A stretch of DNA of 64,000 nt from an uncultured Bacteroidales bacterium (GTDB lineage: Bacteria; Bacteroidota; Bacteroidia; Bacteroidales; WCHB1-69): NCBI GenBank assembly GCA_900317715.1, contig ONHS01000001.1, forward strand, positions 18,316 to 82,315, read 5' to 3'. Below the pieces are notes generated by a model. That model was not told the DNA's origin. It worked only from the letters and a program-made list of their open reading frames with translations, and did not search any database. This document shows positions 6,534-61,727 of this stretch, one piece after another. The translations under genes and the position numbers were made by a program. Position 1 is the first letter of the stretch; every line of letters begins with the position of its first letter.

Positions 6534-6603
6534 TAGCGTTCGTTAATCTCTGCAACTGTCTGAAGAAATATGTTAATTGTCATATTATACAAACTGTAAT
6601 TTT

Positions 6604-7621: not shown

Positions 7622-7629
7622 TAATTTTG
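7622..7629 (+). promoter_or_regulatory. -7 box TAATTTTG upstream of abiEi-like gene
   Basis: Matches TAnnTTTG, 41 nt before ATG 7670. Confidence 0.5.
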
Positions 7630-7669
7630 CAAAAATTTCGGTGTAAAATTAATGTGAAAAACTAACTAT

Positions 7670-8272
7670 ATGACTATAGCTCAAATATTTGAAGAGGAAT
7701 ATCAGAAAGCAGAGAAAGGTTCGCTAATTTTTGCCTCTGACTTTGCGGATTACAATCAGGATTACATAGGCGACTTGCTTGCTCGTTATTCTAAGGATGG
7801 ACGGTTGGAACGGCTGGCCAATGGTGTCTATCTGAAGACAACTATCACAAAGTTCGGTCCAGTGTATCCGACTCCTGCAAAGATAGCAGAGGCGATAGCG
7901 CGTAGGGACCATTGTCAGGTCCTGATGGCTGGCCTGGCTGCTGAAAACCATTTCGGTCTTTCAACGCAGGTTCCGATGAAAGTGGTGTTCCTGACCAGTG
8001 GATCGGCCCGAAAGTTGAATGTAGGCAACACGACCATTGAGTTCAAGCGCGGTGTGCCTAAAAACTTCGCTTTCAAAGACGAAACGATGGCCACGCTTTG
8101 TCTCGCCCTGAAAAGCATCGGCAACGGACACGTAACGGATGAACAACGTGCTGTGTTGAAGCGTTTCCTAAAGAACTATCTCCTTGATCACGATATCAAG
8201 GATGACTTGAAATTGATGCCACAGTGGATCCAGCGTCTGTTAAACGGGATTGTGAAGGAGGTGGAATTATGA
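7670..8272 (+). CDS. AbiEi-like / DUF6088-type antitoxin-transcriptional regulator, 200 aa
   Basis: Size, position immediately upstream of and overlapping (ATGA) an AbiEii toxin gene, and an N-terminal wHTH-like segment. The family call rests mostly on context. Confidence 0.6.
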   Translation: MTIAQIFEEEYQKAEKGSLIFASDFADYNQDYIGDLLARYSKDGRLERLANGVYLKTTITKFGPVYPTPAKIAEAIARRDHCQVLMAGLAAENHFGLSTQVPMKVVFLTSGSARKLNVGNTTIEFKRGVPKNFAFKDETMATLCLALKSIGNGHVTDEQRAVLKRFLKNYLLDHDIKDDLKLMPQWIQRLLNGIVKEVEL

Positions 8273-9789: not shown

Positions 9790-9877
9790 GGCTGTTGGCT
9801 TTTAGCTATTGGCTTTCGGCTATAAGTGGCTAATAGTCAACGGGAAAAGGCAATAGGGAATAGGCAATAGGGAATTG
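9790..9877 (-). repeat. heptamer STR block R1 (families D and E)
   Basis: Plus strand reads ggctgttggcttttagctattggctttcggctataagtggctaatag ... gcaatagggaataggcaatagggaat. The 7-nt period is visible. Confidence 0.75.
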
Positions 9878-9883
9878 CTAAAG

Positions 9884-10651: not shown

Positions 10652-10810
10652 GTTTCAAGTTTCAAGTTTCAGGTTTCAGGTTTCAAGTTTCAGGTTTCAA
10701 GGATCAAGGATCAAAGTTCAAAGTTCAAAGTTAATGGTTTTTAGGTATCAAGTTTTAAGTCTCAAGTCTCACGTCTTAAGTCTCAAGTCTTACGTCTTAC
10801 GTCACACGTC
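10652..10810 (-). repeat. heptamer STR block R2 (sense order A then B)
   Basis: Fills the whole mutL-stop to ABC-start spacer. Plus strand reads gtttcaa/gtttcag x7, ggatcaa x2, agttcaa x2 ... gtctcaa/gtcttac/gtcacac units. Confidence 0.9.
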
Positions 10811-12676
10811 TCACTCGAAATAACGCCGTAATTCTTCTGCGCTGAAGATATGTAACGTGGTTTTTCCCGAGGGCGATAGAGTGGGCATGTCGCTTTCGAA
10901 CAATCTGCGTATCAGCGCTTTCACCTCTTCTTGCGTGCTTGGGACACGCTGGCGGGAGCGTTTTTGACGGGCCAGGCTTTGCGCGATGCCGGAGATTTTG
11001 TCGCCTTTGTGTATCACTTGGTTGGTTTGGTATGCGGAAAGTACGTTTTCGATAAGTGCTTGGACGTCACCTTCTTCCTCTTCGTCGTTAGGGGTGGCGT
11101 TGACCGCAATATGGGTGCTGTCCATCTTCTCCAAATCGTAACCTAATCGCAGGAAATCCTCCTTCAGCGACATGGCCAAATCCGTTTGTGCAGCGGTGAG
11201 GGTGACGGTTTGCGGGAATAGACTCTGCTGAGGTCGTATCGGGGTGTTTTTCAGCGCGTTGACATAAGATTCGTACAAGATACGCTCTTGTACATTGGGT
11301 AGGTCGGCTGTCATTACCTGACCGTTCAGTTCGAAGAAGAGATAGCGGCCACCGAAGACGAAGAAGGGAATGTTTTCGGGGATTTCGAGCTCGTTTTTCT
11401 CACTTTCCGTCTGGAAATCAACCGTTTGCTGTTTTTCTTTCGGGTATTCCACCTTCTCCACATTCAACTCTTTCAGGAAGTTCTCCCAATCGTTGGAGGT
11501 GGGTGTCTCGCGACGGAAATTGCCGCCGCCAAACTGCTGGAACGGGGAACTATGCTTCTTTTCCGGCACTTTGTCGAAGGGATTGTAGTTCGGGTTCGTT
11601 CGGATGGTGGGAGCAATAATCTCCTTGTTTTCAGGACGATCCGTGATGATGTCGGGGAAGGAGTCGTCGAAGTCGATCATCGGGGTGAGCGACATGGTGC
11701 CGAGGGCTTTCTTCACCGTGGAGTTGAGGAAACCAAAGAAGAGGCGTTCGTCTTGCAGTTTCACTTCCACTTTGGTGGGACTGACGTTCACGTCGATGTT
11801 GGCGGGGTCTATTTCCAGAGCGATGAAGTAGGCGGGGTGGGAGCCTTGTGGGATGAGGTCGGCGTAGGCCTTCTCGACGGCGAAATTGAGCAGGTTGTGG
11901 CGCACATAACGGTGGTTGACGAACATGTATTGTTCGCTTTTCCGTTTGGCGTTTTCGGGCTTGGCGATGAAGCCGGTGATGCGCATCAGTTCGTGGTCGA
12001 GTTCCACGGGGAAGAGTTTGTCGTTGAAATGCTGGCCGAAGATGTTGACGATGCGTTGCCGCATGTTGGAGGCGGGTAGCATGAGGATGAGCTTGCCATT
12101 GTGGTAGTATTGGAAGGAGATGTCGTAATGGATGAGAGCAACGCGGTAGAGCTCCTCCTCAATATGGGTGAGTTCCACCTTGTCGGATTTGAGGAAGTTG
12201 CGACGGGCGGGCACGTTGAAGAAGAGGTTTTGAACGGCAATGGAGGTGCCGTCAGACGCAGTGACGGGCGCATGTTCTTTGATGTCAGCCCCTTCAATGC
12301 GGACGAGGGTGCCCATTTCGTCGGCGGCGGGCTTGGTTTTGAGCTCCACGTGCGCGATCGCCGCGATGGAGGCGAGGGCTTCGCCGCGGAATCCTTTGGT
12401 GGAGATGTGGAACAGGTCGTCGGCTTTCCTCAGCTTAGAGGTGGCGTGCCGTTCGAAGCAGAGACGCGCGTCGTTGAATGACATGCCCTTGCCGTTGTCG
12501 ATGACTTGGATCAGGGTCTTGCCGGCGTCTTTCACCACCAGTTGGATGTTGGTTGCCCCAGCATCGATGGCGTTCTCCAGTAATTCTTTCACGACGGAGG
12601 CGGGGCGTTGCACCACTTCACCGGCCGCGATTTGGTTCGCCACCGCATCGGGCAGCAGTCGGATAATGTCTTCCAT
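10811..12676 (-). CDS. mutL: DNA mismatch repair protein MutL, 621 aa
   Basis: N-terminal GHKL ATPase signature LPDAVANQIAAGEVVQRPASVVKELLENAIDAGA with a typical C-terminal dimerisation region. Confidence 0.95.
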   Translation of the reverse strand: MEDIIRLLPDAVANQIAAGEVVQRPASVVKELLENAIDAGATNIQLVVKDAGKTLIQVIDNGKGMSFNDARLCFERHATSKLRKADDLFHISTKGFRGEALASIAAIAHVELKTKPAADEMGTLVRIEGADIKEHAPVTASDGTSIAVQNLFFNVPARRNFLKSDKVELTHIEEELYRVALIHYDISFQYYHNGKLILMLPASNMRQRIVNIFGQHFNDKLFPVELDHELMRITGFIAKPENAKRKSEQYMFVNHRYVRHNLLNFAVEKAYADLIPQGSHPAYFIALEIDPANIDVNVSPTKVEVKLQDERLFFGFLNSTVKKALGTMSLTPMIDFDDSFPDIITDRPENKEIIAPTIRTNPNYNPFDKVPEKKHSSPFQQFGGGNFRRETPTSNDWENFLKELNVEKVEYPKEKQQTVDFQTESEKNELEIPENIPFFVFGGRYLFFELNGQVMTADLPNVQERILYESYVNALKNTPIRPQQSLFPQTVTLTAAQTDLAMSLKEDFLRLGYDLEKMDSTHIAVNATPNDEEEEGDVQALIENVLSAYQTNQVIHKGDKISGIAQSLARQKRSRQRVPSTQEEVKALIRRLFESDMPTLSPSGKTTLHIFSAEELRRYFE

Positions 12677-12769
12677 AGGTTAAAAGGTTTAGAGTTTAAG
12701 GTTTAGGGTTTAGAGTTTAGAGTTTAGAGTTTAGGGGATAAAGGTTGGAAGGTTAGGGGTTAGGGGTTA
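12677..12769 (-). repeat. heptamer STR block R3 (family C only, G-free on sense strand)
   Basis: Plus strand reads ggtttag/agtttag/ggttagg units from the mutL ATG to, and including, the upstream stop codon. Confidence 0.9.
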
Positions 12770-13009
12770 GAAGAATTTCCAGAGGATGAGGGCGAGTACG
12801 ATGGCAAAGAAAATCATGAAGAGAATGGTGATGGAAGAGTTGTTCTTCTTGTCGGAGGTGTGGTTGCGTTTGCTTTGCCATTCCTCGTGCAGGTTGCGGG
12901 CGAAATCGCGGCGTGCGTCGCCTGTGGATTCCTCCTTCTTCGGGTCGTAGAAGCGAGGTTTGTAGTTGAACTGTCTGGGTTCTCTGTTGTTGAAAAACGT
13001 GAATGCCAT
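12767..13009 (-). CDS. small C-terminally membrane-anchored protein, about 80 aa
   Basis: ORF with C-terminal TM helix ITILFMIFFAIVLALILWKFF. Start set to the second ATG (13009) because a -7 box lies at 13028-13035. Confidence 0.4.
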   Translation of the reverse strand: MAFTFFNNREPRQFNYKPRFYDPKKEESTGDARRDFARNLHEEWQSKRNHTSDKKNNSSITILFMIFFAIVLALILWKFF

Positions 13010-18353: not shown

Positions 18354-19703
18354 ATGCATAAGTTTCATTTTAACGCTGCACGGTGGTTATTCCTGTTAGC
18401 CGCCGTGTGTGCGTATTCCGGATTATTGGCACAGGTGGCGGACAATGAATTCACGATTGACGCCAAATTGAACACCCGTGGAGAGATTCGCGTGGGTGGA
18501 TATGACGACGCGGATGGCGAAGGACAGGAAGGAAGAGCCCATTTTATCATGGGGCAGTATCGGCTCAACCTCGGATACAAGCGGTCCGACTGGTTGGAGA
18601 TACGTCTCTCACCGCAGTTCTCCGGCGTATGGGGACAGGCGGGCGGCACTTTGAATCTCTCTGAAGGCTGGCTCACGATGAAACACAACAAGACCGGTCT
18701 TTTCACCAAAATAGGTCGTCAAACTCTTGAATACGACGACGAGCGTATCTTGGGTTACGATGACTGGACCATGACCGCGCCCACCCACGACGCCATCAAA
18801 CTAGGTTTCGAGGGTTACGGTCACAAAGTGCATCTGATCCTCGCCTACAACCAAAATGCAGAAAACATTTCCTCCGGTATCACCTACTATTCCGATGGAA
18901 TACAGCCCTACAAGACCATGCAGACCCTTTGGTACCACTACAACACTCCGAAAAACTTCTTCGGCATCTCCTTGCTCGGCATGAATATCGGAGTGCAAAG
19001 CAAGAAATATGATGAGCCTAACAAAACTTTCTTCCAACAAATTTTCGGCACATACCTGAACTTGAACCCCAGCATTGTCAATGTGGAAGGCTCCTTCTAC
19101 TACCAAATGGGCAGAGAGGAACACGGAATCAAGCTGAACGCCTTCATGGGAAGCGCTAAGGCCACCGTCACCCCCAATGACATCTACAACCTTTACACTG
19201 GTTATGATTACCTGAGCGGTGACAATTACCCCGTCACGACAAATGGCAATTTGGGCCTTATTTTCCATAAAGAGGCGCGGGCATTCACCCCCTTGTTCGG
19301 TTCTCACCACGATTTTTACGGTGCCATGGAATTTTTCTATTTTGACAACTATGCGCACAACTTCTCCCCCGGTTTGCAAAACCTCTATGTCGGTGGCAAC
19401 GTCAGCCCCGTCCCGGGATTGACCATCAACGCCGCCTACCACTTCTACGCCATCGCCGCCGACCTTCAATACGCTCAAAAAGAATTGAACAAAGCATTGG
19501 GCCATGATGTTGACCTCGGCGTGTCCTACTCTTTCGCGAATTTTGTCAAACTGTCGGCAGGCTACTCCTACATGCGCGGCACCGAGACGATGGAAATCCT
19601 CCAAAACACCACCGACAAGCGCCGTCTGCATTGGGGCTGGTTGATGCTGACCGTCACCCCGACTTTCTTCACCACCACGTGGAATGATAAGAAGAAGGTT
19701 TAA
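18354..19703 (+). CDS. outer-membrane beta-barrel protein (porin-like, possibly alginate-export family), 449 aa
   Basis: Signal peptide LFLLAAVCAYSGLLAQ, alternating amphipathic strands rich in Y/G, and a C-terminal aromatic-rich strand. The family name is tentative. Confidence 0.6.
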   Translation: MHKFHFNAARWLFLLAAVCAYSGLLAQVADNEFTIDAKLNTRGEIRVGGYDDADGEGQEGRAHFIMGQYRLNLGYKRSDWLEIRLSPQFSGVWGQAGGTLNLSEGWLTMKHNKTGLFTKIGRQTLEYDDERILGYDDWTMTAPTHDAIKLGFEGYGHKVHLILAYNQNAENISSGITYYSDGIQPYKTMQTLWYHYNTPKNFFGISLLGMNIGVQSKKYDEPNKTFFQQIFGTYLNLNPSIVNVEGSFYYQMGREEHGIKLNAFMGSAKATVTPNDIYNLYTGYDYLSGDNYPVTTNGNLGLIFHKEARAFTPLFGSHHDFYGAMEFFYFDNYAHNFSPGLQNLYVGGNVSPVPGLTINAAYHFYAIAADLQYAQKELNKALGHDVDLGVSYSFANFVKLSAGYSYMRGTETMEILQNTTDKRRLHWGWLMLTVTPTFFTTTWNDKKKV

Positions 19704-19792
19704 GGTTGAGGGTTTAAGGTTGAGGGTTTAAGGTTGAGGGTTTAAGGTTGAGGGTTTAAGGTTTAAGGTTTAAGGTTGAGGGTTTAAGGTTT
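19697..19792. repeat. heptamer STR block R4 (ggtttaa/ggttgag 14-nt double units)
   Basis: Begins inside the last codons (aag gtt taa) of the porin gene and runs ~95 nt. Confidence 0.9.
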
Positions 19793-19884
19793 CAAATTTC
19801 ACGGATTTGGAGGCTGAGAAGAAAAAATTCATCGAACCTTTCCAACTGCATGGTGGCAGGCTGTTTCATACCAAAGTGATGCGT

Positions 19885-24741: not shown

Positions 24742-24860
24742 GGTTTAGGAGGTTAGAAGGTTCAAAGTTCAAGGTTCAAGGTTCAAGGTTCAAAGTTTCA
24801 GGTTTCAAGTTTCAAGTTTCAGGTTTCAAGTCTTAAATCATAAGTCACACGTCATACGTC
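24742..24860 (-). repeat. heptamer STR block R5 (sense order A, B, C)
   Basis: Sense strand reads gacgtatgacgtgtgacttatga... cttgaaa/cctgaaa x6, ccttgaa x3 ... ctaacctcctaaacc. The block overlaps the last 5 codons and the stop of the dus-like gene. Confidence 0.9.
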
Positions 24861-29138: not shown

Positions 29139-29831
29139 ATGAAAAAACCAGATATTCTTGTCATCATTATTATTGTTCTTTGCTTGCTGCCATTCTTCTT
29201 GTTTGACAGCGTTTATGATGCGTATTGCACAGCAAATCAGCGTTTTCCGTTATGGATGGCCTTTTTGAAATTCGGCATATTGGCTACGTTTGGGGAGATG
29301 TTGGGATGCCGTGTGAGAACGGGCGAATATTACCATAAAGGTTTCGGCATTGCTCCGAAATTTGTCATTTGGGGACTTTTGGGTATGTGGATTGCCTTGG
29401 CGATGAGTGTTTTCCGTCTCGGCATCCCTGCGTTCATGGAGCGTTATGCAGCCTTCAGCGGTGTTTCCGCCGCCATGGCAGGCCCGATGTCGTGGCTGAA
29501 ACTCCTCGGCGCCTTCTGCATCAGCGTGATGATGAACACCTCCTTCGCGCCCGTCTTCATGACCGTGCACAAGATCTCCGACATGCACATCAGCGAGCAC
29601 GGCGGCGCCTTCTCCGCGCTCTTCAAGCCCGTTGATGTGAAACGTCACATCTGCGAAATGGACTGGGGTGTGCAATGGGGCTTCGTCTTCAAGAAGACCA
29701 TCCCGATGTTCTGGATTCCTGCCCATACGCTCACTTTCTGTCTGCCGCAAGACCTCCAAGTGCTCTTCGCCGCCTTCTGTAGCGTCATCCTCGGACTGTT
29801 CCTGTCCATCGCTGCGAAAAAAGGGAACTAG
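29139..29831 (+). CDS. polytopic membrane protein, 230 aa
   Basis: About six hydrophobic helices. No family recognised. Confidence 0.6.
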   Translation: MKKPDILVIIIIVLCLLPFFLFDSVYDAYCTANQRFPLWMAFLKFGILATFGEMLGCRVRTGEYYHKGFGIAPKFVIWGLLGMWIALAMSVFRLGIPAFMERYAAFSGVSAAMAGPMSWLKLLGAFCISVMMNTSFAPVFMTVHKISDMHISEHGGAFSALFKPVDVKRHICEMDWGVQWGFVFKKTIPMFWIPAHTLTFCLPQDLQVLFAAFCSVILGLFLSIAAKKGN

Positions 29832-30023
29832 CTGTTGGCCGTTAGTCGTTCGCTTGCGAGAAACTAATGCTTTGAGACGTGTGACGTATGACGTGTGATG
29901 TGTGATGTGTGACTTGTGACCCTCGACACCTTGACCCTTGACCCTATACTATTAACCTTCTAACCTTCAACCCCTTAAACCTTCAACCCTAAACCCTAAA
30001 CCTTAAACCAACCCCAAACCAAC
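29832..30023 (+). repeat. heptamer STR block R6 (E-like, A 29874-29920, B 29921-29946, C 29953-30020)
   Basis: Fills the entire stop-to-ATG spacer. The last 78 nt contain no G. Confidence 0.9.
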
Positions 30024-30713
30024 ATGTATTTTATCATTTTCATCGTATTAATGGTCGCGAGCATGGTCATCCAAAAGACCTTGACCTCGCGCATGGAAAA
30101 ATATTCCAAAGTCCCGCTCAGCAGCGGGCTCTCCGGCAAGCAAGTGGCCGAGAAGATGCTGCGTGACAACGGTATTTATGACGTGCAGGTGACCTGCACC
30201 GGCGGTTATCTCACCGACCACTACGACCCGACCAAGAAGACGGTCAACCTGAGTGAAGGTGTCTATGAGGGTCGCAACATCTCCGCCGCTGCCGTCGCTG
30301 CGCACGAGTGCGGACACGCCGTGCAGCACGCCACTGCCTACCGCTGGCTCACCATGCGTTCCAAGCTGGTGCCCGCCGTGCAATTCGGTTCGCAATTCTC
30401 GACATGGATTCTGCTGGCAGGTATCGTCCTCTTAGGATTTACCCAGTATTTAGGACAATGGGTGCTGCTGATTGGCATTGCTCTTTTTGCATTGACCACC
30501 ATCTTCTCCATCATTACCCTGCCTGTGGAGTACAATGCTTCCGAACGTGCCGTCGCTTGGCTCGACGAGCAGGCCATCACCACTGGCGAAGAGACCGTTA
30601 TGGCCAAGGACGCCCTCAAGTGGGCCGCCCGCACCTACCTCATCGCCGCTATTTCCTCGCTGGCCACCTTGTTGTACTATATCTCCATTTACATGGGAGG
30701 AAGAAGGGATTAA
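30024..30713 (+). CDS. YugP-family zinc metallopeptidase, 229 aa
   Basis: HECGHAVQH zinc motif with N- and C-terminal TM helices, typical of the neutral zinc metallopeptidase (YugP) family. Confidence 0.85.
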   Translation: MYFIIFIVLMVASMVIQKTLTSRMEKYSKVPLSSGLSGKQVAEKMLRDNGIYDVQVTCTGGYLTDHYDPTKKTVNLSEGVYEGRNISAAAVAAHECGHAVQHATAYRWLTMRSKLVPAVQFGSQFSTWILLAGIVLLGFTQYLGQWVLLIGIALFALTTIFSIITLPVEYNASERAVAWLDEQAITTGEETVMAKDALKWAARTYLIAAISSLATLLYYISIYMGGRRD

Positions 30714-30743
30714 TTCATAATTCACAATTCATAATTCATAATT
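30711..30743 (+). repeat. heptamer STR block R7 (family F, ttcataa)
   Basis: taattcataattcacaattcataattcataatt spans from the stop codon to 3 nt before the next ATG. Confidence 0.85.
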
Positions 30744-30746
30744 GGA

Positions 30747-31835
30747 ATGAAAAGAATCGTAACATTATTAGTTGTTAACCTGTTGGTTTTAAGTGTGTTT
30801 GCGCAGGTGCAGGTTTATCCTTTGGGAAATTTGCCGGAGAAGGTGAAATATACGGGTTCCGTGACATATGCGCTTCCTTCCACTACGTTGAAAGTGACGG
30901 TTTCCGTCTCCAAAGTGCAGGATGTGCGCGGCTATTTCGCGGATTATGCCGAAAGTCTGCTTGGATTGACCAATATCATCCAGCAGAACAGCACCCATTA
31001 CTTGATCAATTCTGTGGAGATCGAACCTTTGAAAACGCCTGATATGACTGAAGTTTACAGGGCTTTCACCTCCAACGCTGTACTTGCTGAATCTATGAAC
31101 AAAGCTCCTCTCACTGCTCATGTGGCTTTCCCAGATGGGTATTTAACAGCCTATCAAACGCATACGGCATCGCTCCCTGAGTTCTTCAAAAACTATGCGG
31201 ACATTTCGTACACACAACAGCAGGAGACGTTTGTAGATACTAAAATCATTGACGGTGTCGTGACGCAAGTGCCTGCCAATCATACGAAAACGGTCTCCAA
31301 GAGTTTTGAGAACAAAGCTCGTGAGGCTGCCGATGCCATCATGAAGAGCCGTAAAGATCAATACAATCTGGTTGCGGGCGAGCAGGAAACTCCCTATACG
31401 GGAGAGGCGTTGGCCATCATGCTTTCGGAACTTAAAAATTGGGAAAGCAACTACATGAGCCTTTTCACTGGTGTCTCCATCGCCGACACGATCCAGTATG
31501 TGTTCTATTTTACGCCAAACAGCAAATTGGAGCAGATGACGGCGTTCTATTTTAGTGAGAACAAAGGACTTAACCCGACGGAAGGTGCCGCTGCGAATGC
31601 TTATACGCTGAACTTTAATCCTCGCTACCCAAAGATGTTTGAAGTGGCGGAATGGTATTTTCCGCAATCAGGTTTTTTGACGCGCAACAGGCAACCCGTG
31701 CACGTCACCCTGTCGCACGACAAAAAGGTTCACGATTTCGGTGTTGTGAACATGTACCAAGCGGGAAGCACTTTTGTGGTACAACCTTCCGCAAAAGAGC
31801 CCTTCGACATAAACCAAGTTGGCATTGTGTTTTAG
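30747..31835 (+). CDS. secreted hypothetical protein (DUF4831-like), 362 aa
   Basis: Signal peptide MKRIVTLLVVNLLVLSVFAQ. The family name is from memory of similar Bacteroidota proteins and is tentative. Confidence 0.55.
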   Translation: MKRIVTLLVVNLLVLSVFAQVQVYPLGNLPEKVKYTGSVTYALPSTTLKVTVSVSKVQDVRGYFADYAESLLGLTNIIQQNSTHYLINSVEIEPLKTPDMTEVYRAFTSNAVLAESMNKAPLTAHVAFPDGYLTAYQTHTASLPEFFKNYADISYTQQQETFVDTKIIDGVVTQVPANHTKTVSKSFENKAREAADAIMKSRKDQYNLVAGEQETPYTGEALAIMLSELKNWESNYMSLFTGVSIADTIQYVFYFTPNSKLEQMTAFYFSENKGLNPTEGAAANAYTLNFNPRYPKMFEVAEWYFPQSGFLTRNRQPVHVTLSHDKKVHDFGVVNMYQAGSTFVVQPSAKEPFDINQVGIVF

Positions 31836-31975
31836 CTTGACGTATGACGTATGATTTGTGACTTGTGACTTATGACTTATGACTTATGATTAGTGATATA
31901 GACTAGATTCTTGACCCTTGACCTTCGACCCTAAACATTAAACTCTAAACCCTAAACCCCAAACCTTAAACCTTC
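31836..31975 (+). repeat. heptamer STR block R8 (A 31836-31897, B 31910-31931, C 31930-31975)
   Basis: cttgacgtatgacgtatga...gacttatgacttatgacttatga ... cttgacccttgaccttcgaccc taaacattaaactctaaaccctaaaccccaaaccttaaaccttc, then ATG. Confidence 0.9.
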
Positions 31976-32482: not shown

Positions 32483-33423
32483 TGTTTCCCTGGGGCGATG
32501 AGCGGCGGTTTAACGCCTATAGCCGCTATTGCAGAGCGCATTACGGCGGCAGAATCCAGAAACTGCCGGTGGATGCGGGTTTCTCCTGTCCCAACCGTGT
32601 GAGTCGCACGCAAGGCGGTTGCACCTATTGTGCCAACAGTGCCTTTTCTCCATCTTATCTTGCTGATAAAGAAGATGTTGCTTTTCAATTGGAGCGCGGT
32701 AAAACCTTCTTTCAGAAAAGGTATCCCAAGAATAAAGGTTATTTTGCTTATTTTCAGGCATATACTAATACAAATGCACCTGTTGAGGTCCTTCGGCGAA
32801 AGTTCGAGGCGGCTTTGACCGTGGCTGATATTAAGGGACTTGTCATTTCCACCCGTCCTGATTGTCTGCCGGAAGAGGTGTTGGATTACCTTTCCGAGCT
32901 GAACGAGCGCACACACCTGACGATGGAAATAGGCGTGGAAAGTTTTCATAATGAGACGCTTACGCATATCCATCGCGGACATACGGTGGAATGCACTTTC
33001 GAAGCGTTTGAAAAACTGCATCAGCGGAATATTTCCACCAGTGCGCATCTGATTTTCGGTCTGCCCGACGAGAAACCCGAGCAATGGTTGGAGGATGTGC
33101 GGATCCTCAATAGATTGCGGTCCCAGTTCGTGAAATTCCATCAGCTGCAGATTTTCAAGAACACCGCCATGGAAACCGAATATGCGCAACATCCCGAGCG
33201 TTTCCATTCTTTTTCCGCCGATGATTACGTGCAGTTTCTGTGCGATTATCTGGAGCGGATGTCCCCCGAAATTGTCATTGAGCGCTTCTCGGCCGAGGTG
33301 CCACCCCGCTATCTCGCTGTCTCCCAGTGGAATTTGCTGCGCCATGATGCGTTGGTGCGTAAGGTAGAGGAGGAAATGGAGCGGAGGGGAAGCTGGCAGG
33401 GAGGTTCAATTCATAATTCATAA
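32482..33423 (+). CDS. TIGR01212-type radical SAM protein, 313 aa
   Basis: QKLPVDAGFSCPNR.....GGCTYC cluster motif. ATG 32482 overlaps the upstream TGA (TGATG). The last codons lie in the F repeat. Confidence 0.8.
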   Translation: MFPWGDERRFNAYSRYCRAHYGGRIQKLPVDAGFSCPNRVSRTQGGCTYCANSAFSPSYLADKEDVAFQLERGKTFFQKRYPKNKGYFAYFQAYTNTNAPVEVLRRKFEAALTVADIKGLVISTRPDCLPEEVLDYLSELNERTHLTMEIGVESFHNETLTHIHRGHTVECTFEAFEKLHQRNISTSAHLIFGLPDEKPEQWLEDVRILNRLRSQFVKFHQLQIFKNTAMETEYAQHPERFHSFSADDYVQFLCDYLERMSPEIVIERFSAEVPPRYLAVSQWNLLRHDALVRKVEEEMERRGSWQGGSIHNS

Positions 33424-33432
33424 TTCATAATT
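33407..33432 (+). repeat. heptamer STR block R9a (family F)
   Basis: caattcataattcataattcataatt encodes the last 5 residues (IHNS plus stop) of the radical SAM gene. Confidence 0.85.
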
Positions 33433-33474: not shown

Positions 33475-33558
33475 GTTCATCGATTATTCATCGTCTTTCA
33501 TCCTCTTTCATCGCCTTTCGTCGCCTTTCATCGCCTTTCCTCGTATTTCATCGTATTT
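33475..33558 (+). repeat. decamer tandem repeat R9b (ctttcatcgc x ~8)
   Basis: 10-nt period: ctttcatcct ctttcatcgc ctttcgtcgc ctttcatcgc ctttcctcgt atttcatcgt. Confidence 0.85.
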
Positions 33559-35200: not shown

Positions 35201-35279
35201 TAATTCATAATTCATAATTCATAATTCATAATGCATAATGCATAATTACAATTCATAATTATTATTCACAATTCATAAT
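35201..35279 (+). repeat. heptamer STR block R10a (family F: ttcataa / tgcataa)
   Basis: taattcataattcataattcataattcataatgcataatgcataattacaattcataattattattcacaattcataatt. Confidence 0.9.
35216..35247. repeat. left arm of 32-nt inverted repeat flanking the four-helix-bundle gene
   Basis: aattcataattcataatgcataatgcataatt matches the reverse complement of 35652-35683 at 31 of 32 positions. Confidence 0.9.
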
Positions 35280-35290
35280 TAGGTAAAGGG

Positions 35291-35653
35291 ATGAAAGACA
35301 TTAAAGATAATATAATCGTAGTGAAGAGTACTGAGTTCGCAGTAGAGATTGTAAAAGCATGTAATTGGTTGCGAAAAGAAAAAAAAGAATGGGTGATGTC
35401 TGAGCAATTGTTGAAAAGTGGTACTAGCATTGGGGCTAACATTCGTGAGGGAATCAGGGGACAGAGCAGTGCTGATTTTTATGCTAAATTCAATGTTTCA
35501 CTCAAAGAAGCAAGTGAAACAGATTATTGGTTAGAACTATTATTTTTGAGTGGATATTTTGATAAAACTCTGTATGATGATCTGAATTTAAAATGCCAAG
35601 AATTAATACGATTGTTGATGTCCATAGTAAAACACAAAGATACCCCCAAATAA
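35291..35653 (+). CDS. four-helix-bundle protein (23S rRNA intervening-sequence protein / Avd-like family), 120 aa
   Basis: Length and motifs (SGTSIGANI.EG, F..K...SLKEA.ET.YWLELL) are typical of the TIGR02436-type family. Confidence 0.75.
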   Translation: MKDIKDNIIVVKSTEFAVEIVKACNWLRKEKKEWVMSEQLLKSGTSIGANIREGIRGQSSADFYAKFNVSLKEASETDYWLELLFLSGYFDKTLYDDLNLKCQELIRLLMSIVKHKDTPK

Positions 35654-35683
35654 TTATGCATTATGCATTATGAATTGTGAATT
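35652..35683. repeat. right arm of the 32-nt inverted repeat (family F in inverted orientation)
   Basis: aattatgcattatgcattatgaattgtgaatt overlaps the TAA stop of the four-helix-bundle gene. Confidence 0.9.
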
Positions 35684-35692
35684 AATTTTCAG

Positions 35693-36827: not shown

Positions 36828-37030
36828 TGTGTGACGTGTGATGTGTGACGTGTGACGTGTGACGTGTGACGTGTGACGTGTGACGTGTGACGTGTGACGT
36901 GTGATAGTTGCTATAATCAAAAGTCATAAATCATAAATCAAAAGTCAAACGTCATAAGTCAAACTTCAAAAGTCAAACGTCATAAGTCAAACTTCATAAG
37001 TCAAACGTCAAAAAATAAACCTTAACCCCC
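36825..37030 (+). repeat. heptamer STR block R11 (A: tgtgacg x ~11 at 36825-36905; aagtcaa/acgtcat/acttcaa units at 36918-37010; short C)
   Basis: Starts with the murG stop TGA and ends 6 nt before ATG 37037. Confidence 0.9.
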
Positions 37031-37036
37031 AAAAAA

Positions 37037-45552: not shown

Positions 45553-45617
45553 CTTGAAACTTGAACTTTGAATCTTGAAACTTGAATCTTGAATCTTGAA
45601 ACCTTAAAACCTTAAAA
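45553..45617 (+). repeat. heptamer STR block R12 (B: cttgaaa/ctttgaa/tcttgaa x7; then ccttaaaa x2)
   Basis: ccttgaaacttgaactttgaatcttgaaacttgaatcttgaatcttgaaaccttaaaaccttaaaaa. Confidence 0.9.
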
Positions 45618-45628
45618 ATCATATTATT

Positions 45629-48600
45629 ATGAAAAACCTCATCTCCTTATTCGTGATTTTAGCGACGCTGGTGGCAGGGCTGAACGCACAGACCCTCACG
45701 GTGGCCAATGATCCGAATGGTGTTGCTATGCAGGATCGATACATCCCTGTATATGGTTATTACATGGATGCGGCACAACGGTCCCAAACCATTTACCCCA
45801 ATACCATGTTGACAGCGATGACGGGGAAATACATCACCGAACTCACCTATTATTTCGCCACCGCGCCTAACGGGACTTGGGGCGGTACCCAGACGGTAAA
45901 GATCGGGGTGACGACGGCCTCGGATTTGGAGAATGGGTTTGTCGCATCGCCTGCCACGCTGGTATGGACCGGCACGCTGTCGGCCAACATCTCCAACAAC
46001 CAGATGCACATCGTGTTGGACCAGCCATTCCTGTATAGTGGAGGCAATCTGCTGATTGAGATTGAAAATCCGACGGCGGCTACCTGGAAAGATTCCTATT
46101 TTGCCGGTCAGAGCCAGTCTGATCAGCTGTCGTATATGACTTGGTCGAACTATGGTACACCCCAGACCCATGCGGCGAACTTTCTGCCAAGACTGACGTT
46201 TGCGTATTCCTCCACCCCGGGATGTGCCACGCCTAACAACTTAGTTTCCTCAGTCAATGGCGATTTCGCCCTGCTGACCTGGTCTCCATCTCCATACAGC
46301 ACTGTCTCAAGTTACACCGTGGGATACAAGTCTTCATTAGACACTGCCTACACGGATGTGACGACAACGGACACCTTCCTCACCATCAGCAACTTGATAC
46401 CTAACACAGACATCCAATGGCGGGTTCGCGCCAACTGCGGCGATTCCGAACAGAGTTCTTGGAGAGCGGCCTCTCTGCACGTGCCGCAAGTCATAGGTAA
46501 TCTACCCTATCATTGCGACTTCGAGGATTTGGTCGAAAACCAGCAGTGGATGCTGCAAAACGGAAGCTACCCGAACAAATGGTGCATCGGGGAAGCCACA
46601 CACAGCAGCGGCAGCCATGCCTTGTACATCTCCAACAACGATGGCGCCAGCAACCAGTACTCCACCGGCAACTCAAGTTCCACTTCGACGGTTTGGGCTT
46701 ATCGGGACATTTATTTCGACACCACCTACAATGAATACGACATTTCGTTGGATGTCAAAGGGATGGGACATATAGATGCCGGCTTTATGCGTATGTATCT
46801 CGGTTCTCCGGCAACCCCTTCGGGAATGTCGGTTCCCGGCAACGCCATCCAAATGAGGACATTTTATTTTATAGAGAACTGGCAGCATTTCCATTTCGTT
46901 GTAGATAGCACACACCGGGGCTTGCAACGAATCTATTTTGTGTGGAACAACGGCTCTACCTTTGGTGTCAACCCTCCTGCCGCCATCGACAATCTTACAG
47001 TGACCGGTGTCAACATTCCAGCCCCTACAGGATTGACCGCCACAGACATCACCACCTCGTCCGCGACGCTTTCCTGGAATGGCGGTGCCTCGTCTTCCTA
47101 CACCCTCTCCTACCGTATTGCCTCTGACACCGCCAGCACAGAAGTGACACTCAGCGACACCTTTTTCGTGGCCACGGGATTGGATGTGTCACAGACCTAT
47201 TTGTGGAAGGTCAAGGTGAACACAGGTACAGGAAGTGCATGGAGCGGCGAAAGCAGTTTCAAAACCCTGGCAAATATAGCGCAAGTGCCCTACCAGTGCG
47301 ATTTTGAGGACAATTTGGAGAACCAGCAATGGCAGCTCGTTAACGGCAACTACCCCAACCGCTGGTTCATTGGAAGTGCCGTGAACCATGGCGGCGAAAA
47401 AGCGCTGTTCGTCTCCGACAACAATGGGGTGTCATACAGTTACAACACCAATGTTTCCTACATTTGGGCATACCGCGACATTGACTTTGACACCATTTAC
47501 GCCGGCCACCGTCTCTCCTTCGACTGTAAAAACCACACCTTCTACAGCAGCAGTTACCATGGCACTTTCCGAGTGTATATTGGCGACCCTGTTGATCCGA
47601 ACGGCGGATATATTCCGGCTGGAGCTGTGCAGTTAGGCAGTGACATTTACAACCAGAACAACTGGACACGACCCACTTTCCTGTTAGATTCCACCTACAG
47701 AGGAGTGAAACGCCTCTATTTCTATTGGCACACGCCCGGCTCCTATTCCCGTGTGAACCCACCTGCCGCAGTAGATAATGTCACCATCGAGAGCTTCACC
47801 TGCGCGACACCCGAGGGGCTTGCCACCCAACCCGACAGCACCTCCGCTGTCCTCACCTGGAACGCGCCTGTTTTCGGCACAGCTTCCTCTTATACGCTGG
47901 CTTACAAGACATTGTCTGACCTTGAATACACGGAAGTGACGGTAACCGACACTTTCTATCTTCTAACAGAATTGACGGCCTCCACCGAATACGAATGGAA
48001 GGTTCGCGCCCACTGTTCTGCAAACGATGAGAGTGACTGGAGCGAGTCGGTTTCGTTCATCACCGCGCCCTTGTTAGCGCAGCTGCCCTACTTCTGTGGG
48101 TTCGAAGATGCGTTGGAGAACCAGCAGTGGCGTTTCGTGAGACTGGCGGACGAGGGCTGGTTCATCGGGACCGCCACAGCCCACACGGGAGAACATTCGC
48201 TGTATAATTCCAACGACGGAGGGGTAAGCTATGCGGTGAACCAAGCGGACTACGGATCCAATGTACACGAGTTTTGGGCCTACCGCGACGTTAACTTCAC
48301 TCCCGGGTATGCCGACTACCAGATTTCTTTCGACTACAAAGGCATAGAAAACGCGTGGAGCAATTTGGTGCTGTTTATTGGCAACACTGGGGTAAGTGAG
48401 CCAGCCACATACACTTACACACCGGCAGGGACCCTTTTCTCCCAATATTTATCCGCCCAAGACACCGCTTGGCATCACTTCTCCCTTACGATTGACTCGA
48501 CTTATCAGGGAGTGAAGCGGATCTACTTTCATTTCAGCAACTCGTACGACCCGTGCGAAGCGCCTGCCGCCATTGACAACCTCACCATTACGGGAAACGC

Positions 48601-59621: not shown

Positions 59622-59779
59622 GAAGGTTTAGGGTTTAGGGGGAAAATAAAGTTAGCAGTTAGCAGATAGTAGTTAGTAGTTAGCGGGGAGTAGGGAGAAG
59701 GGAATAGGGAATAGTCATACGTCAAAAGTCTAAGTTTAAGTTTATGTCTATGTCTAGGTTCAAAGTTCAAAGTCAAAGT
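59622..59779 (-). repeat. heptamer STR block R13 (sense order B, A-like, D, E, C)
   Basis: Fills the whole uvrC-stop to peptidase-ATG spacer. The sense strand ends ...ccccctaaaccctaaaccttcATG. Confidence 0.9.
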
Positions 59780-61552: not shown

Positions 61553-61727
61553 GGAGGGTGAGGGTTTAAGGTTGAGGGTTTAGGGGGTTAATAGGTTAGG
61601 GTCGAGGGTCGAGGGAAAAGGGAGTAGGGAATAGTTCAAGGTTCAAAGTTCAAAGTTCAAAGTTCAAGGTTCAAAGTCAAAAGTCAAAGTTCAAAGTTCA
61701 AAGTCAGCTAACAGCTAACAGCCAGTT
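61553..61727 (-). repeat. heptamer STR block R14 (sense order E, B, D, B-like, C)
   Basis: Sense strand reads ctggctgttagctgttagctga ctttgaa units x ~10, ctattccctactccc, cctcgaccctcgaccc, ...ccctaaaccctcaaccttaaaccctcaccctccATG. Confidence 0.9.

What the first reader, a model, noticed from the sequence alone, without database searches (positions are those of the whole stretch)
29946..30023. G-free tracts of 20-93 nt immediately upstream of start codons
On the sense strand the C-type blocks contain no guanine at all: 78 nt before ATG 30024, 46 nt before ATG 31976, about 93 nt before the mutL ATG (12677-12769, minus) and 21 nt before ATG 59621 (minus). The 82 nt before uvrC contain only two G. 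An RNA lacking G cannot form G-C or G-U pairs and so is essentially unstructured. Bacteroidota initiate translation largely without Shine-Dalgarno pairing and are thought to depend on open, A-rich leaders. These tracts could therefore be built-in unstructured ribosome landing pads for internal cistrons. That function is my inference.
Basis: partly seen in the sequence, partly recalled or inferred. Interest (0 to 1): 0.7.

Follow-up and report, generated by a model that had tools for sequence, protein, structure and literature searches.

The report
G-free repeat spacers before start codons
The guanine-free stretches in front of several genes are real, but they are the start-codon ends of fast-changing 7-base tandem repeats that fill the gaps between same-direction genes in this rumen Bacteroidales lineage, and are more likely tolerated open leaders than purpose-built ribosome landing pads.

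Summary
The G-free run before ATG 30024 is 83 nt, before ATG 31976 it is 48 nt, before mutL 102 nt and before ATG 59621 34 nt. The 82 nt before uvrC contain two G. No Markov simulation reached these lengths.

The tracts are not stand-alone elements. They are the C/A-rich, start-proximal blocks of composite period-7 tandem arrays. In 11 loci of this uncultured rumen Bacteroidales clade, arrays cover 27% of co-directional intergenic DNA but only 2% of divergent intergenic DNA. The arrays are polar on the mRNA strand:
- Blocks next to a stop codon are G/T-rich.
- Blocks next to a start codon are G-poor. Among long tracts that abut a start, 13 are G-free on the sense strand and 2 are C-free.

The focal tract is predicted to be completely unstructured (MFE 0). 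Its length, however, is not conserved. The mutL leader is 17, 32, 34, 43, 90 or 209 nt in relatives with 91-100% identical MutL, and it is almost always G-free. Some orthologues of the focal gene use their own promoter and a short A-rich leader. One carries the arrays in inverted polarity.

Best reading: these are slippage-generated repeats, filtered by selection so that only G-free, unstructured versions can sit next to a start codon in a phylum that does not use Shine-Dalgarno pairing. The closest precedents are the heptamer repeats of Xanthomonas/Nostoc and of Beggiatoaceae. The function is unproven.

The parts
29941..30023 (+). Focal G-free C/A-rich tract. It has degenerate units CTAAACC/CTTAAAC/CTTCAAC and abuts the ATG of a Zn_peptidase_2 gene (30024-30713).
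   Evidence: Searches show an 83-nt G-free run. TRF finds period 7-8 arrays at 29953-30009. The fold has MFE 0 kcal/mol.
29876..29945 (+). Stop-proximal G/T-rich array (GACGTGT, 6.4 copies, 38% G), followed by a CTTGACC array (29917-29945). Together they form the 5' part of the same composite spacer.
   Evidence: An RNA contig (X25) spans 29810-29968 without a break, so the spacer is transcribed together with the upstream gene.
29841..29868 (+). Small hairpin just after the stop codon of gene 29139-29831. Relatives L001 and L166 carry the GTAGAGACG...CGTCTCTAC hairpin at the same place.
   Evidence: It is the only element kept in the centroid fold. Orthologous hairpins are shown.
31838..31975 (+). 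Paralogous composite spacer with the same block order: GACGTAT/GACTTAT array, then CTTGACC, then a G-free CTAAACC tract (31928-31975, 48 nt) abutting ATG 31976.
   Evidence: It aligns to the focal spacer with a local score of 74, against a shuffle maximum of 22.
12677..12778 (-). G-free CCCTAAA/CTCTAAA/CCTTAAA array between an 80-aa ORF (12767-13009) and mutL (10811-12676). The spacer proper is 12677-12766.
   Evidence: Orthologous spacers are 17-209 nt and G-free or nearly so. RNA contig X26 covers 12732-12854.
59622..59655 (-). G-free tract ending ...CCCTAAACCCTAAACCTTC before the ATG of an M14 carboxypeptidase gene. The junction with the start codon is the same as at ATG 31976.
   Evidence: Pfam.
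61553..61634 (-). C-rich tract before uvrC. It holds 2 G in 82 nt, and the last 50 nt are G-free. CTTTGAAC arrays lie upstream at 61633-61704.
   Evidence: Pfam.
10652..10810 (-). Spacer from mutL to the ABC ATPase gene, made entirely of arrays. GACGTGT/GACTTGA units follow the stop codon; CTTTGAA/CCTGAAAC units run up to the ATG, with one G per unit.
   Evidence: Orthologues show copy-number changes and, in one case, replacement of a block.
36829..37036 (+). Two arrays in inverted orientation, (GTGACGT)n and (ACGTCAT/AAGTCAA)n, predicted to form a hairpin of about 190 nt. A 29-nt G-free leader (37008-37036) follows.
   Evidence: Fold gives -76.1 kcal/mol, z -7.6. Inverted arms are 77 nt and 74% complementary.
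45553..45628 (+). CTTGAAA/CTTAAAAC arrays that form the leader of the 3714-aa gene. They lie downstream of a TATTTTTG promoter-like motif at the start of the spacer. The last 30 nt are G-free.
19697..19791 (+). Exception in reverse polarity. (GGTTTAAGGTTGAG)6.8 sits directly after the stop codon of a + strand porin-like gene, G-rich and C-free on its sense strand, and is predicted to be structured.
   Evidence: Fold gives -19.7 kcal/mol, z -5.5.
24757..24830 (-). CCTTGAA/CTTGAAAC arrays between a stop codon and the promoter motif of the next gene. This array lies upstream of a promoter, not in a leader.
30711..30746 (+). TAATTCA array that fills the 33-nt spacer between the Zn-peptidase gene and the DUF4831 gene. 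The same unit recurs at 33408-33432 and 35201-35281.
   Evidence: It is conserved in L001.

Best explanation
The G-free tracts are the start-proximal blocks of lineage-specific intergenic tandem repeats. These are long simple-sequence repeats with units of mostly 7 nt, sometimes 8. They arise and change length by replication slippage in the transcribed spacers between co-directional genes.

Selection on the mRNA then decides which repeat can sit where. This phylum does not use Shine-Dalgarno pairing, and its start codons must be single-stranded and free of competing AUG, GUG or UUG. Next to such a start codon, only units without G survive on the sense strand. G/U-rich units, often self-pairing, are tolerated next to the preceding stop codon.

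The tract therefore works passively. It keeps the initiation region open, free of extra start codons, and separated from upstream structure. Its length beyond about 17-30 nt has no function.

Shown here: repeat nature, polarity, lack of predicted structure, transcription, length hypervariability.
Inferred: slippage as the generator, and selection against G as the filter.
For: - Every tract lies in a TRF array, and period 7 dominates.
- Arrays occupy 27% of co-directional, 14% of convergent and 2% of divergent intergenic bases in 11 clade loci.
- The polarity is significant. Start-proximal arrays have G<C in 21 of 28; stop-proximal arrays have G>C in 15 of 19; Spearman rho is -0.37, p=0.002. 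Among long tracts abutting a start, 13 are G-free and 2 are C-free on the sense strand.
- G content is 6-7% in the first 30 nt upstream of the ATG and rises to about 20% beyond -110.
- The mutL leader is 17, 17, 43, 32, 34, 90 or 209 nt in relatives with 91-100% identical MutL. It has 0 G in all but one form, which has 1. Its units differ only by C<->T, never A->G.
- The period is not conserved. Units of 8 nt occupy the same spacers in L001 and L163, which argues against a 7-nt-specific reader.
- The fold of the focal tract has MFE 0, and pairing probability in the initiation region is halved.
- RNA contigs cross from upstream genes into the arrays.
- Literature: low structure and AUG avoidance near Bacteroidetes starts (PMC6847099); heptamers are the commonest long simple-sequence repeat class, with slippage proposed as the cause (Mrazek 2007, as cited in PMC4679880); the same positional and strand rule holds for Xanthomonas/Nostoc heptamers (PMC4692102).
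Against: - G-freeness could simply reflect the youth of arrays amplified from a G-free seed, rather than selection.
- The polarity has exceptions: L168 has inverted arrays before the same gene, and 19697-19791 in the window is reversed.
- Unlinked genes share nearly the same consensus and the same junction, CCCTAAACC(C/T)TAAACCTTC-ATG.
- Spacers within one genome resemble each other more than orthologous spacers do between genomes. This hints at something more than independent slippage, such as gene conversion, spreading, or a trans-acting reader.
- The statistics pool orthologous spacers, so the counts are not independent.
- There is no expression, ribosome-profiling or transcription-start data for this organism.
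Confidence: 0.55

Rival explanations
1. Adaptive ribosome landing or standby pad. The long G-free, C/A-rich tract is selected because it recruits 30S subunits, probably through protein bS1, to internal cistrons that have no Shine-Dalgarno sequence. It would raise or set their translation rate.
For: - The tracts are unstructured, lie on the sense strand, and precede promoter-less internal cistrons.
- bS1 is proposed to read upstream single-stranded regions in Bacteroidetes (PMC6847099).
- From my own knowledge, not checked here: the tobacco mosaic virus omega leader is a G-poor CAA-rich enhancer that also works in bacteria.
Against: - Length varies 17-209 nt among near-identical strains, while the standby effect saturates at 16-18 nt.
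- Orthologues of the focal gene work with a promoter plus a 20-nt A-rich leader, or with arrays in inverted, G-rich polarity.
- Only about 9% of genes have such tracts. These include low-expression repair genes (mutL, uvrC) that lack the favourable A at -3.
- The composition differs from native leaders.
Confidence: 0.2
2. Binding platform for a trans-acting single-strand RNA-binding protein, such as a cold-shock protein, an RRM or KH protein, or bS1. The repeated CCCUAAA-like units upstream of many unrelated genes would form a post-transcriptional regulon, as proposed for the TAACTGA repeats of Beggiatoaceae.
For: - Five unlinked tracts in 64 kb align to one consensus, and two share an identical junction with the start codon.
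- Each genome has its own unit repertoire: within-genome similarity exceeds orthologous similarity.
- A near-TAACTGA array, (TAACTGC/TAACTAC)5, sits at 59650-59684.
- MacGregor 2015 reports heptamer repeats a few nt upstream of starts and notes that CspB binds one heptamer per protein.
- The arrays are abundantly transcribed in rumen metatranscriptomes.
Against: - Unit sequence and even the period (7 vs 8 nt) change between sister species at the same spacer.
- Copy number ranges from 0 to about 30 for the same gene.
- The genes served are functionally unrelated.
- No candidate protein was identified.
Confidence: 0.1
3. Rho-utilisation (rut) sites. The C-rich, G-free, untranslated and unstructured RNA of 50-100 nt loads the Rho termination factor. 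This would terminate read-through transcription, or make transcription of the downstream gene depend on its translation.
For: - Composition and length match the textbook description of rut sites as C-rich, G-poor, unstructured and about 70-80 nt (my own knowledge). The focal tract is 83 nt with about 40% C and 0% G.
- The tracts lie in untranslated spacers after stop codons.
Against: - The tract abuts the next start codon, with no promoter between. Termination there would silence the downstream gene.
- RNA contigs enter the arrays from upstream genes.
- Orthologous spacers of 17-43 nt are too short for Rho loading.
- Many start-proximal arrays are A/T-rich rather than C-rich, for example TAATTCA.
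Confidence: 0.07
4. A DNA-level role. The G-rich template strand, (GGGTTTA)n-like and resembling plant telomere repeats, would form G-quadruplexes, or the C-rich strand i-motifs. These would modulate transcription or replication, as suggested for the GGGNATC repeats of Xanthomonas and Nostoc.
For: - The positional and strand rule is the same as for the G4-forming heptamers of Xanthomonas/Nostoc.
- G4-like motifs with loops up to 12 nt occur opposite the uvrC tract (61556-61629), at 59685-59709 and at 19710-19754.
Against: - No G4 motif lies opposite the focal tract, the 31928-31975 tract or the mutL tract.
- Most units carry only CC/GG.
- There is no preference for four units.
- Polarity follows gene direction in both + and - clusters of the same window. 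This points to the transcript rather than to replication.
Confidence: 0.05

Closest known systems
Intergenic G-rich heptamer repeats GGGNATC of Xanthomonas and GGGGA(C/T)T of Nostoc (cyanobacterial STRR-type repeats); Rehm et al. 2015, PMC4692102
   Same: - The unit is a heptamer.
- The repeats are concentrated between co-directional ORFs and rare between divergent ORFs.
- Within 50 bp upstream of an ORF the G-rich strand is the non-coding strand, so the mRNA is C-rich. Right after a stop codon the G-rich strand is the coding strand.
- The repeats are transcribed.
- Length and sequence vary widely between close relatives at the same spacer.
- Neighbouring genes fall in no particular functional class, and the function is unknown.
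   Different: - The units differ: CCCTAAA, CTTGAAA, GTGACGT, TAATTCA and others.
- Several unit types are chained in a fixed 5'-to-3' order within one spacer.
- There is no preference for four units, and most tracts have no G4 motif.
- The host phylum lacks Shine-Dalgarno use.
- Tracts reach 100-209 nt with no G at all.
TAACTGA heptamer direct repeats of marine Beggiatoaceae, some Cyanobacteria and five Bacteroidetes; MacGregor 2015, PMC4679880
   Same: - Heptamer direct repeats lie in forward orientation within a few nt of start codons of unrelated genes.
[quoted passage not shown]
- Occasional reverse-orientation sets occur just after stop codons.
- A translational role involving S1, Csp or CsrA-like proteins has been proposed.
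- A one-mismatch relative, TAACTGC/TAACTAC, is present at 59650-59684. True TAACTGAA arrays occur in a Chitinophagaceae locus, L027.
   Different: - That case has one dominant heptamer with 2-6 copies. Here many unit families occur, with up to 30 copies.
- TAACTGA contains G, whereas the tracts here are G-free.
- No sign of the horizontal transfer proposed there was seen here.
Long simple sequence repeats of prokaryotes (Mrazek, Guo and Shah 2007), as summarised in PMC4679880
   Same: - They are tandem repeats of 5-11-nt units, far longer than chance allows.
- Heptanucleotide units are the commonest class.
- They are mostly intergenic.
- Polymerase slippage is proposed as their origin.
- Period 7 is also the commonest period in 80 unrelated Bacteroidota loci.
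   Different: - That class is defined by form only.
- The density here is about 14 times the median of other Bacteroidota loci: 21 vs 1.5 bp per kb.
- The polar G-to-C architecture is additional.
Ribosome standby sites and unstructured CA-repeat 5' tails (Sterk et al. 2018, PMC5934652). Also the tobacco mosaic virus omega leader (my own knowledge).
   Same: They are single-stranded, C/A-rich, G-poor RNA upstream of a start codon that supports initiation without relying on Shine-Dalgarno strength.
   Different: - The standby effect saturates at 16-18 nt and was shown next to a structured ribosome-binding site.
- Here there is no structured site to override, the tracts are 3-12 times longer, and no activity has been measured.

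Membership tests
Long simple sequence repeats (5-11-nt units) | Head-to-tail tandem copies of a 5-11-nt unit | tested here: met
   TRF finds period 7 (some 8 and 10) with 3-19 copies at all five tracts and 11 further spacers.
Long simple sequence repeats (5-11-nt units) | Length beyond chance expectation for the genome | tested here: met
   The Markov simulation maximum is 57-67 nt, against 85-114 nt observed. Array density is 14 times the median of 80 Bacteroidota loci.
Long simple sequence repeats (5-11-nt units) | Copy-number change between close relatives (slippage signature) | tested here: met
   The mutL leader is 17-209 nt at 91-100% MutL identity. The mutL-ABC spacer is 152 vs 159 nt at 99% identity. 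A 10-nt unit indel separates strains at 33521.
G4-forming intergenic heptamers (Xanthomonas/Nostoc type) | Enriched between co-directional ORFs, depleted between divergent ORFs | tested here: met
   Arrays cover 27% of co-directional vs 2% of divergent intergenic bases. Arrays are present in 42/88 vs 3/16 spacers.
G4-forming intergenic heptamers (Xanthomonas/Nostoc type) | G-rich strand is non-coding near starts and coding near stops | tested here: met
   Start-proximal arrays have G<C in 21/28; stop-proximal arrays have G>C in 15/19. Long tracts abutting a start: 13 vs 2.
G4-forming intergenic heptamers (Xanthomonas/Nostoc type) | Four or more G3 tracts (quadruplex potential), with a preference for four units | tested here: not met
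   No G3+ x4 motif (loops up to 12 nt) lies opposite the focal, 31928-31975 or mutL tracts. Motifs occur only opposite the uvrC tract and at two other sites. Copy numbers range from 3 to 30.
TAACTGA repeats (Beggiatoaceae type) | Unit sequence TAACTGA | tested here: not met
   Units here are CCCTAAA, CTCTAAA, CCTTAAA and others. Only 59650-59684 (TAACTGC/TAACTAC) comes close.
TAACTGA repeats (Beggiatoaceae type) | Forward orientation within a few nt of a start codon | tested here: met
   The tracts end 0-3 nt from the ATG.
Ribosome standby site / unstructured translational enhancer | Single-stranded RNA adjacent to the initiation region | tested here: met
   MFE is 0 for 29941-30030. Pairing probability is 0.13-0.23 for tract genes, against about 0.5 for others. 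These are predictions only.
Ribosome standby site / unstructured translational enhancer | Increases initiation or protein output; 30S or S1 binding | not testable with these tools
   No ribosome-profiling, proteomic or reporter data are available. The metatranscriptome contigs are too fragmentary.
Rho utilisation (rut) site | C-rich, G-poor, unstructured, untranslated RNA of about 70-80 nt | tested here: inconclusive
   This is met by the focal tract (83 nt) and the mutL tract (90 nt). Orthologous spacers of 17-43 nt are too short.
Rho utilisation (rut) site | Rho-dependent 3' ends downstream | not testable with these tools
   No 3'-end mapping data are available.
Phase-variable contingency repeats | Repeats in promoter spacers or 5' coding regions of surface or adaptation genes, switching expression on and off | tested here: not met
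   The arrays avoid divergent promoter regions and lie outside ORFs. They flank housekeeping genes such as mutL, uvrC, a radical SAM gene and murG-like.
REP/BIME-type palindromic extragenic elements | Imperfect palindrome forming a stem-loop | tested here: not met
   There are no inverted repeats in the focal spacer or in four other tract-bearing spacers. Only 36828-37036 and 9792-9882 have inverted arrays.
Known RNA families (Rfam 15) | Match at gathering score | tested here: not met
   Only two tRNAs were found in the window.

The most novel reading that the evidence does not exclude
The arrays would be a modular system of spacers between cistrons that is read in trans and specific to each genome, in a phylum without Shine-Dalgarno use. 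A G/U-rich, often self-pairing module would close off the upstream cistron. A G-free C/A-rich module would be recognised by bS1 or a dedicated single-strand RNA-binding protein and start the next cistron. Slippage-driven changes in length (17 to 209 nt for mutL at 99% protein identity) would then heritably tune the expression of housekeeping genes, including the mismatch-repair gene itself.
Probability: 0.12. Interest if true: 0.8.

Novelty: new member of a known kind. Interest (0 to 1): 0.45.

Why it matters
It is not settled how internal cistrons are translated in Bacteroidota, which do not use Shine-Dalgarno pairing. The function of the heptamer repeats scattered through several bacterial phyla has also been open since the 1990s.

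This rumen lineage offers an unusually dense natural experiment. About half of its co-directional spacers are repeat arrays with a clear stop-to-start polarity. Close strains carry leaders of 17 to 209 nt in front of the same gene. These natural variants make it directly testable whether such tracts tune translation, load Rho, bind a protein, or are only tolerated.

On the practical side, the arrays break short-read assemblies of these abundant rumen organisms. Exact repeat words recur at many loci, which matters for genomes assembled from metagenomes.

Tried and rejected
- G-quadruplex explanation. No motif lies opposite three of the five tracts.
- Known RNA family. No Rfam hit was found.
- Hairpin or REP-like element. 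The focal spacers have no inverted repeats, and the fold of the whole focal spacer is no better than shuffles (z +1.0).
- Own promoter inside the focal spacer. The nearest candidate, TAATGCTTTG, has the wrong spacing for TAnnTTTG (reading), and an RNA contig reads through from the upstream gene.
- Phase variation. The genes are housekeeping, and arrays avoid promoter regions.
- A general translational requirement. Most genes have no tract.
- Replication-strand bias as the cause of polarity. Polarity follows gene direction in both + and - clusters of one 64-kb window.
- Stop codons in all frames as the selected property. The sense-strand excess is only modest, 52 vs 40 of 68 units.
- Avoidance of start-codon triplets at the unit level in start-proximal arrays. 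The result was not clearly different from the antisense strand (4 vs 7 of 26).
- Scans of metagenome contigs and genome contigs with the Zn-peptidase protein. They gave only one close syntenic relative (L001); more distant relatives have no arrays at this spacer.
- Rumen metatranscriptome contigs. They are too short to map transcript starts or ends.
- A phylum-wide strand test with crude ORF calls. It gave only a weak bias (24 vs 14) and miscalled some genes, so I rely on the clade loci that have proper gene calls.
Full report
**1. The observation**

All lie on the sense strand of the downstream gene.

| Gene start | G-free tract | Length | Reported |
|---|---|---|---|
| ATG 30024 | 29941-30023 | 83 nt | 78 |
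| ATG 31976 | 31928-31975 | 48 nt | 46 |
| mutL ATG 12676 (minus) | 12677-12778 | 102 nt | about 93 |
| ATG 59621 (minus) | 59622-59655 | 34 nt | 21 |

For mutL, 90 nt of the run are spacer. The rest is the end of an 80-aa ORF. The 82 nt before uvrC hold exactly two G, and the last 50 nt hold none.

First-order Markov simulations never reached these lengths. The maximum was 57 nt for the whole window and 67 nt with intergenic composition, against 85, 104 and 114 nt observed.

**2. What the tracts are part of**

Tandem Repeats Finder shows that all five tracts lie in tandem arrays, almost all of period 7. The window holds at least 16 array-bearing spacers. Printing every intergenic region on the sense strand of its flanking genes shows that most spacers between co-directional genes consist of little else.

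Several spacers are composites with a recurring 5'-to-3' order. The focal spacer 29832-30023 runs as follows:
- a small hairpin after the stop codon (29841-29868);
- (GACGTGT)n, with 38% G;
- (CTTGACC)n;
- the G-free CTAAACC-like tract, up to the ATG.

The spacer before ATG 31976 repeats the same order and aligns to the focal one.

Other unit families include:
- CTTGAAA/CTTTGAA;
- TAATTCA;
- CTATTCC;
- GCTAACT;
- AAGTCAT.

The flanking genes are unrelated housekeeping and surface genes. They include an Mpv17-like gene, a Zn peptidase, DUF4831, a radical SAM gene, comM-like, murG-like, ybaK-like, mutL, an ABC ATPase, uvrC, lptD-like and type IX secretion cargo proteins.

**3. Organism and relatives**

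The window comes from an uncultured rumen Bacteroidales lineage that is abundant in bovine metagenomes. I collected 14 loci from relatives:
- L001 is syntenic, with 89% Zn-peptidase identity.
- L161-L163 and L170-L174 cover mutL at 91-99% identity.
- L164-L169 cover the Zn-peptidase gene at 83-93% identity.

More distant relatives (70-75% identity) have no arrays at the focal spacer. They carry a TAnnTTTG promoter and a short A-rich leader instead.

Period 7 is also the commonest tandem-repeat period in 80 unrelated Bacteroidota loci. However, the window has 21 bp of such repeats per kb, against a median of 1.5.

**4. Rules the arrays obey in the clade**

These results come from 11 loci, about 230 kb, with gene calls taken from the tools.
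- Arrays cover 27% of co-directional, 14% of convergent and 2% of divergent intergenic bases. Spacers with arrays carry the TAnnTTTG promoter motif less often (13/42 vs 25/46, p=0.03).
- On the sense strand, arrays within 15 nt of a start codon have G<C in 21 of 28 (mean G 7%, C 22%). Arrays within 15 nt of a stop codon have G>C in 15 of 19. G minus C falls with relative position in the spacer (rho -0.37, p=0.002).
- Among long G- or C-free intergenic tracts that abut a start, 13 are G-free and 2 are C-free on the sense strand. Among those abutting a stop the ratio is 2 to 5.
- Of 172 genes, 15 have a G-free run of at least 30 nt at the start. The counts are 3 for C-free and 0 for A-free or T-free.
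- In array spacers G is 6-7% over -1..-30 and climbs to about 20% beyond -110. Ordinary leaders have 11-18% G, only 11% C and an A peak of 54% at -11..-20, against 26% C and 42% A in array leaders.

Polarity follows gene direction in both + and - gene clusters of the same window. It therefore tracks transcription, not replication.

These counts include orthologous spacers and are not fully independent.

**5. Structure**

The focal tract and the mutL tract are predicted to be unpaired, with MFE 0 and -3.3 kcal/mol. The mean pairing probability of -30..+15 is 0.26 for genes with tracts and 0.52 for the others (p=3e-8).

Some stop-proximal G/U-rich arrays self-pair:
- (GUGACGU)11 folds at -27.8 kcal/mol, z -2.7.
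- The reverse-polarity array 19690-19800 folds at -19.7 kcal/mol, z -5.5.
- In spacer 36828-37036, two arrays in inverted orientation form a hairpin of about 190 nt (-76 kcal/mol, z -7.6), followed by a 29-nt G-free leader.

Other G-type arrays do not fold better than shuffles. "Structured after the stop codon" is therefore a tendency, not a rule. The focal spacers contain no inverted repeats.

**6. Transcription**

Rumen metatranscriptome contigs run without a break from the upstream gene into the arrays. Examples are 29810-29968, 31734-31881, 31703-31929 and 12732-12854. The arrays are therefore transcribed, in line with co-transcription.

The contigs are too short to map transcript starts or ends.

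**7. Evolution**

This is the most informative result. The spacer between the small ORF and mutL varies as follows:

| Locus | MutL identity | Spacer length | G count |
|---|---|---|---|
| window | 100% | 90 nt | 0 |
| L170 | 99% | 209 nt | 0 |
| L171 | 96% | 17 nt | 0 |
| L161 | 95% | 17 nt | 0 |
| L172-L174 | 95% | 43 nt | 1 |
| L162 | 92% | 32 nt | 0 |
| L163 | 91% | 34 nt | 0 |

Within the arrays the units differ by C<->T only (CCCTAAA, CTCTAAA, CCTTAAA). The window and the 17-nt form share the last nine nt before the ATG.

The focal spacer behaves in the same way:
- The G-free run is 83 nt in the window, 70 nt in L164 and 49 nt in L001. In L001 the units are 8 nt long, and units containing G occur only further upstream.
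- L166 has a 16-nt run, with three G in its array.
- L165, L167 and L169 have a different upstream gene, their own promoter and a leader of about 20 nt, with no array.
- L168 keeps the same upstream gene but has arrays of the same unit family in inverted polarity (G 26%, C 8% on the sense strand).

Strains about 1% diverged keep the focal tract with one substitution and no indel. A 10-nt unit indel occurs in the period-10 array at 33521.

The two composite spacers of one genome resemble each other more than either resembles its orthologue in the sister genome. Local alignment scores are 74 and 119 within genomes, against 48 and 35 between genomes. Shared 8-mers are 33% and 58% within, against 14% and 0% between. 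This indicates homogenisation within a genome.

**8. Interpretation**

The arrays have the form and dynamics of slippage-generated long simple-sequence repeats. The heptamer class is the commonest in prokaryotes (Mrazek 2007, as summarised in PMC4679880).

Their placement and polarity match what Rehm et al. described for the G-rich heptamers of Xanthomonas and Nostoc. Those lie between aligned ORFs and are rare between divergent ORFs. Their G-rich strand is non-coding near a start and coding near a stop. They are transcribed and variable between close relatives, and their function is unknown (PMC4692102).

The placement also recalls the TAACTGA repeats upstream of start codons in Beggiatoaceae and a few Bacteroidetes (PMC4679880).

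In Bacteroidetes, initiation does not use Shine-Dalgarno pairing. It is tuned by low structure, and extra AUGs near the start are avoided (PMC6847099). A tract without G cannot form G-C or G-U pairs and cannot contain ATG, GTG or TTG.

The simplest account is that slippage produces arrays freely in transcribed spacers. Selection then removes those that put G close to a start codon. The G gradient with distance, the absence of A-to-G variants in 209 nt and the strand bias all fit this account.

The extreme length variation argues against a function that depends on length. So do the orthologues that have no array or an inverted one. A third argument is that CA-tail standby enhancement saturates at 16-18 nt in E. 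coli (PMC5934652), which equals the shortest natural leader, 17 nt.

The tracts are open leaders of internal cistrons in a phylum that needs open leaders. But "built-in landing pad" overstates the evidence.

**9. Rivals**

- Adaptive standby pad (0.2). See section 8.
- Trans-acting RNA-binding protein (0.1). The shared consensus and start junction at unlinked genes and the genome-specific unit repertoire favour it. The changing unit and period at the same spacer argue against it.
- Rho loading site (0.07). The composition fits. However, the tracts abut the next ATG with no promoter between, and the orthologous spacers are too short.
- Quadruplex or i-motif DNA (0.05). Three of the five tracts have no quadruplex motif.

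**10. Novelty and limits**

The kind is known: intergenic heptamer repeats with positional and strand bias. The new points are:
- the lineage;
- the density of arrays;
- the chained G-to-C architecture;
- wholly G-free tracts of up to 209 nt;
- the link to initiation without Shine-Dalgarno pairing.

I found no paper describing this in rumen Bacteroidales, but the library searched is incomplete.

No functional data exist. All structure statements are predictions. The comparative counts pool related loci. The generator (slippage) and the filter (selection against G) are inferred, not shown.

Noticed in passing
window 56806-56833; L001 9834-9861; L166 spacers A and B; L168 spacer B; half copy in L167: A perfect 9-10-bp hairpin, GTAGAGACG(C)-loop-(G)CGTCTCTAC, recurs after stop codons across the clade. 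It looks like a terminator or a REP-type element. In L001 and L166 it sits exactly where the window has the G-type array starting GAGACGTGTGACGT, so that array may have grown out of the hairpin's left arm.
   Followed up: partly
window 36829-37010: Two different heptamer arrays in inverted orientation are predicted to form a hairpin of about 190 nt (-76 kcal/mol, z -7.6) between a murG-like gene and a ybaK-like gene. Possible roles are a terminator, a processing site or an mRNA stabiliser.
   Followed up: partly
L027 (Chitinophagaceae bacterium 26-R-25), e.g. 3467-3620, 4787-4942, 10688-10839, 12492-12586; also L058 8062-8161 and L007: In distant Bacteroidota, heptamer or octamer arrays come as inverted pairs flanking 40-100 nt. 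One pair is TAACTGAA/TCAGTTAT, the Beggiatoaceae-type unit. This architecture differs from the polar arrays of the window.
   Followed up: no
window 29870-30023 vs 31836-31975; L001 9861-10000 vs 11830-11940: Two composite spacers 2 kb apart are more alike within a genome than either is to its orthologue in the sister species. In L001 both have switched to 8-nt CT(T/C)CTAA(A/G) units. This indicates concerted evolution of spacers by gene conversion, spreading, or a genome-wide determinant.
   Followed up: partly
window 30711-30743, 33408-33432, 35201-35281: TAATTCA arrays have a contig depth of 2,600-7,800 in rumen metagenomes, against about 10-20 for flanking DNA, and about 150 in metatranscriptomes. 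They have dozens of different flanks. This exact repeat word is therefore very widespread and transcribed in the rumen community. It also breaks short-read assemblies at these points.
   Followed up: partly
window 12677-12766 and L170 1292-1500: The leader of the mismatch-repair gene mutL differs by 119 nt (17 units) between strains with 99% identical MutL. If length affected expression, this would be a heritable modulator of mutation rate. That was not tested.
   Followed up: partly
window 12767-13009 (minus strand): A conserved 80-aa ORF with a C-terminal hydrophobic helix and its own TAnnTTTG promoter lies directly upstream of mutL in all relatives examined. It has no Pfam family.
   Followed up: no
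window 35291-35653: A 23S_rRNA_IVP (four-helix-bundle) gene is flanked on both sides by arrays, TAATTCA at 35201-35281 and AATTATG at 35652-35684. It is absent from the corresponding place in L164 and L166, which suggests a small inserted cassette.
   Followed up: no
window 33487-33558: A period-10 array (TTCATCGTCT, 7 copies) lies in the spacer upstream of the comM-like gene's promoter. One strain lacks one unit (10-nt deletion at 33521).
   Followed up: partly
window 45629-56773: A 3714-aa protein with at least 12 fibronectin type III repeats and a type IX secretion C-terminal sorting domain. Its leader consists of CTTGAAA arrays that begin right after a promoter-like TATTTTTG.
   Followed up: no
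L171 3367-3547: At 96% MutL identity, the mutL-to-ABC spacer has exchanged its CTTGAAAC-type block for a 180-nt C-type block of CTAACCTC/CTTCTAAA units. Whole blocks can therefore be replaced, not only resized.
   Followed up: no
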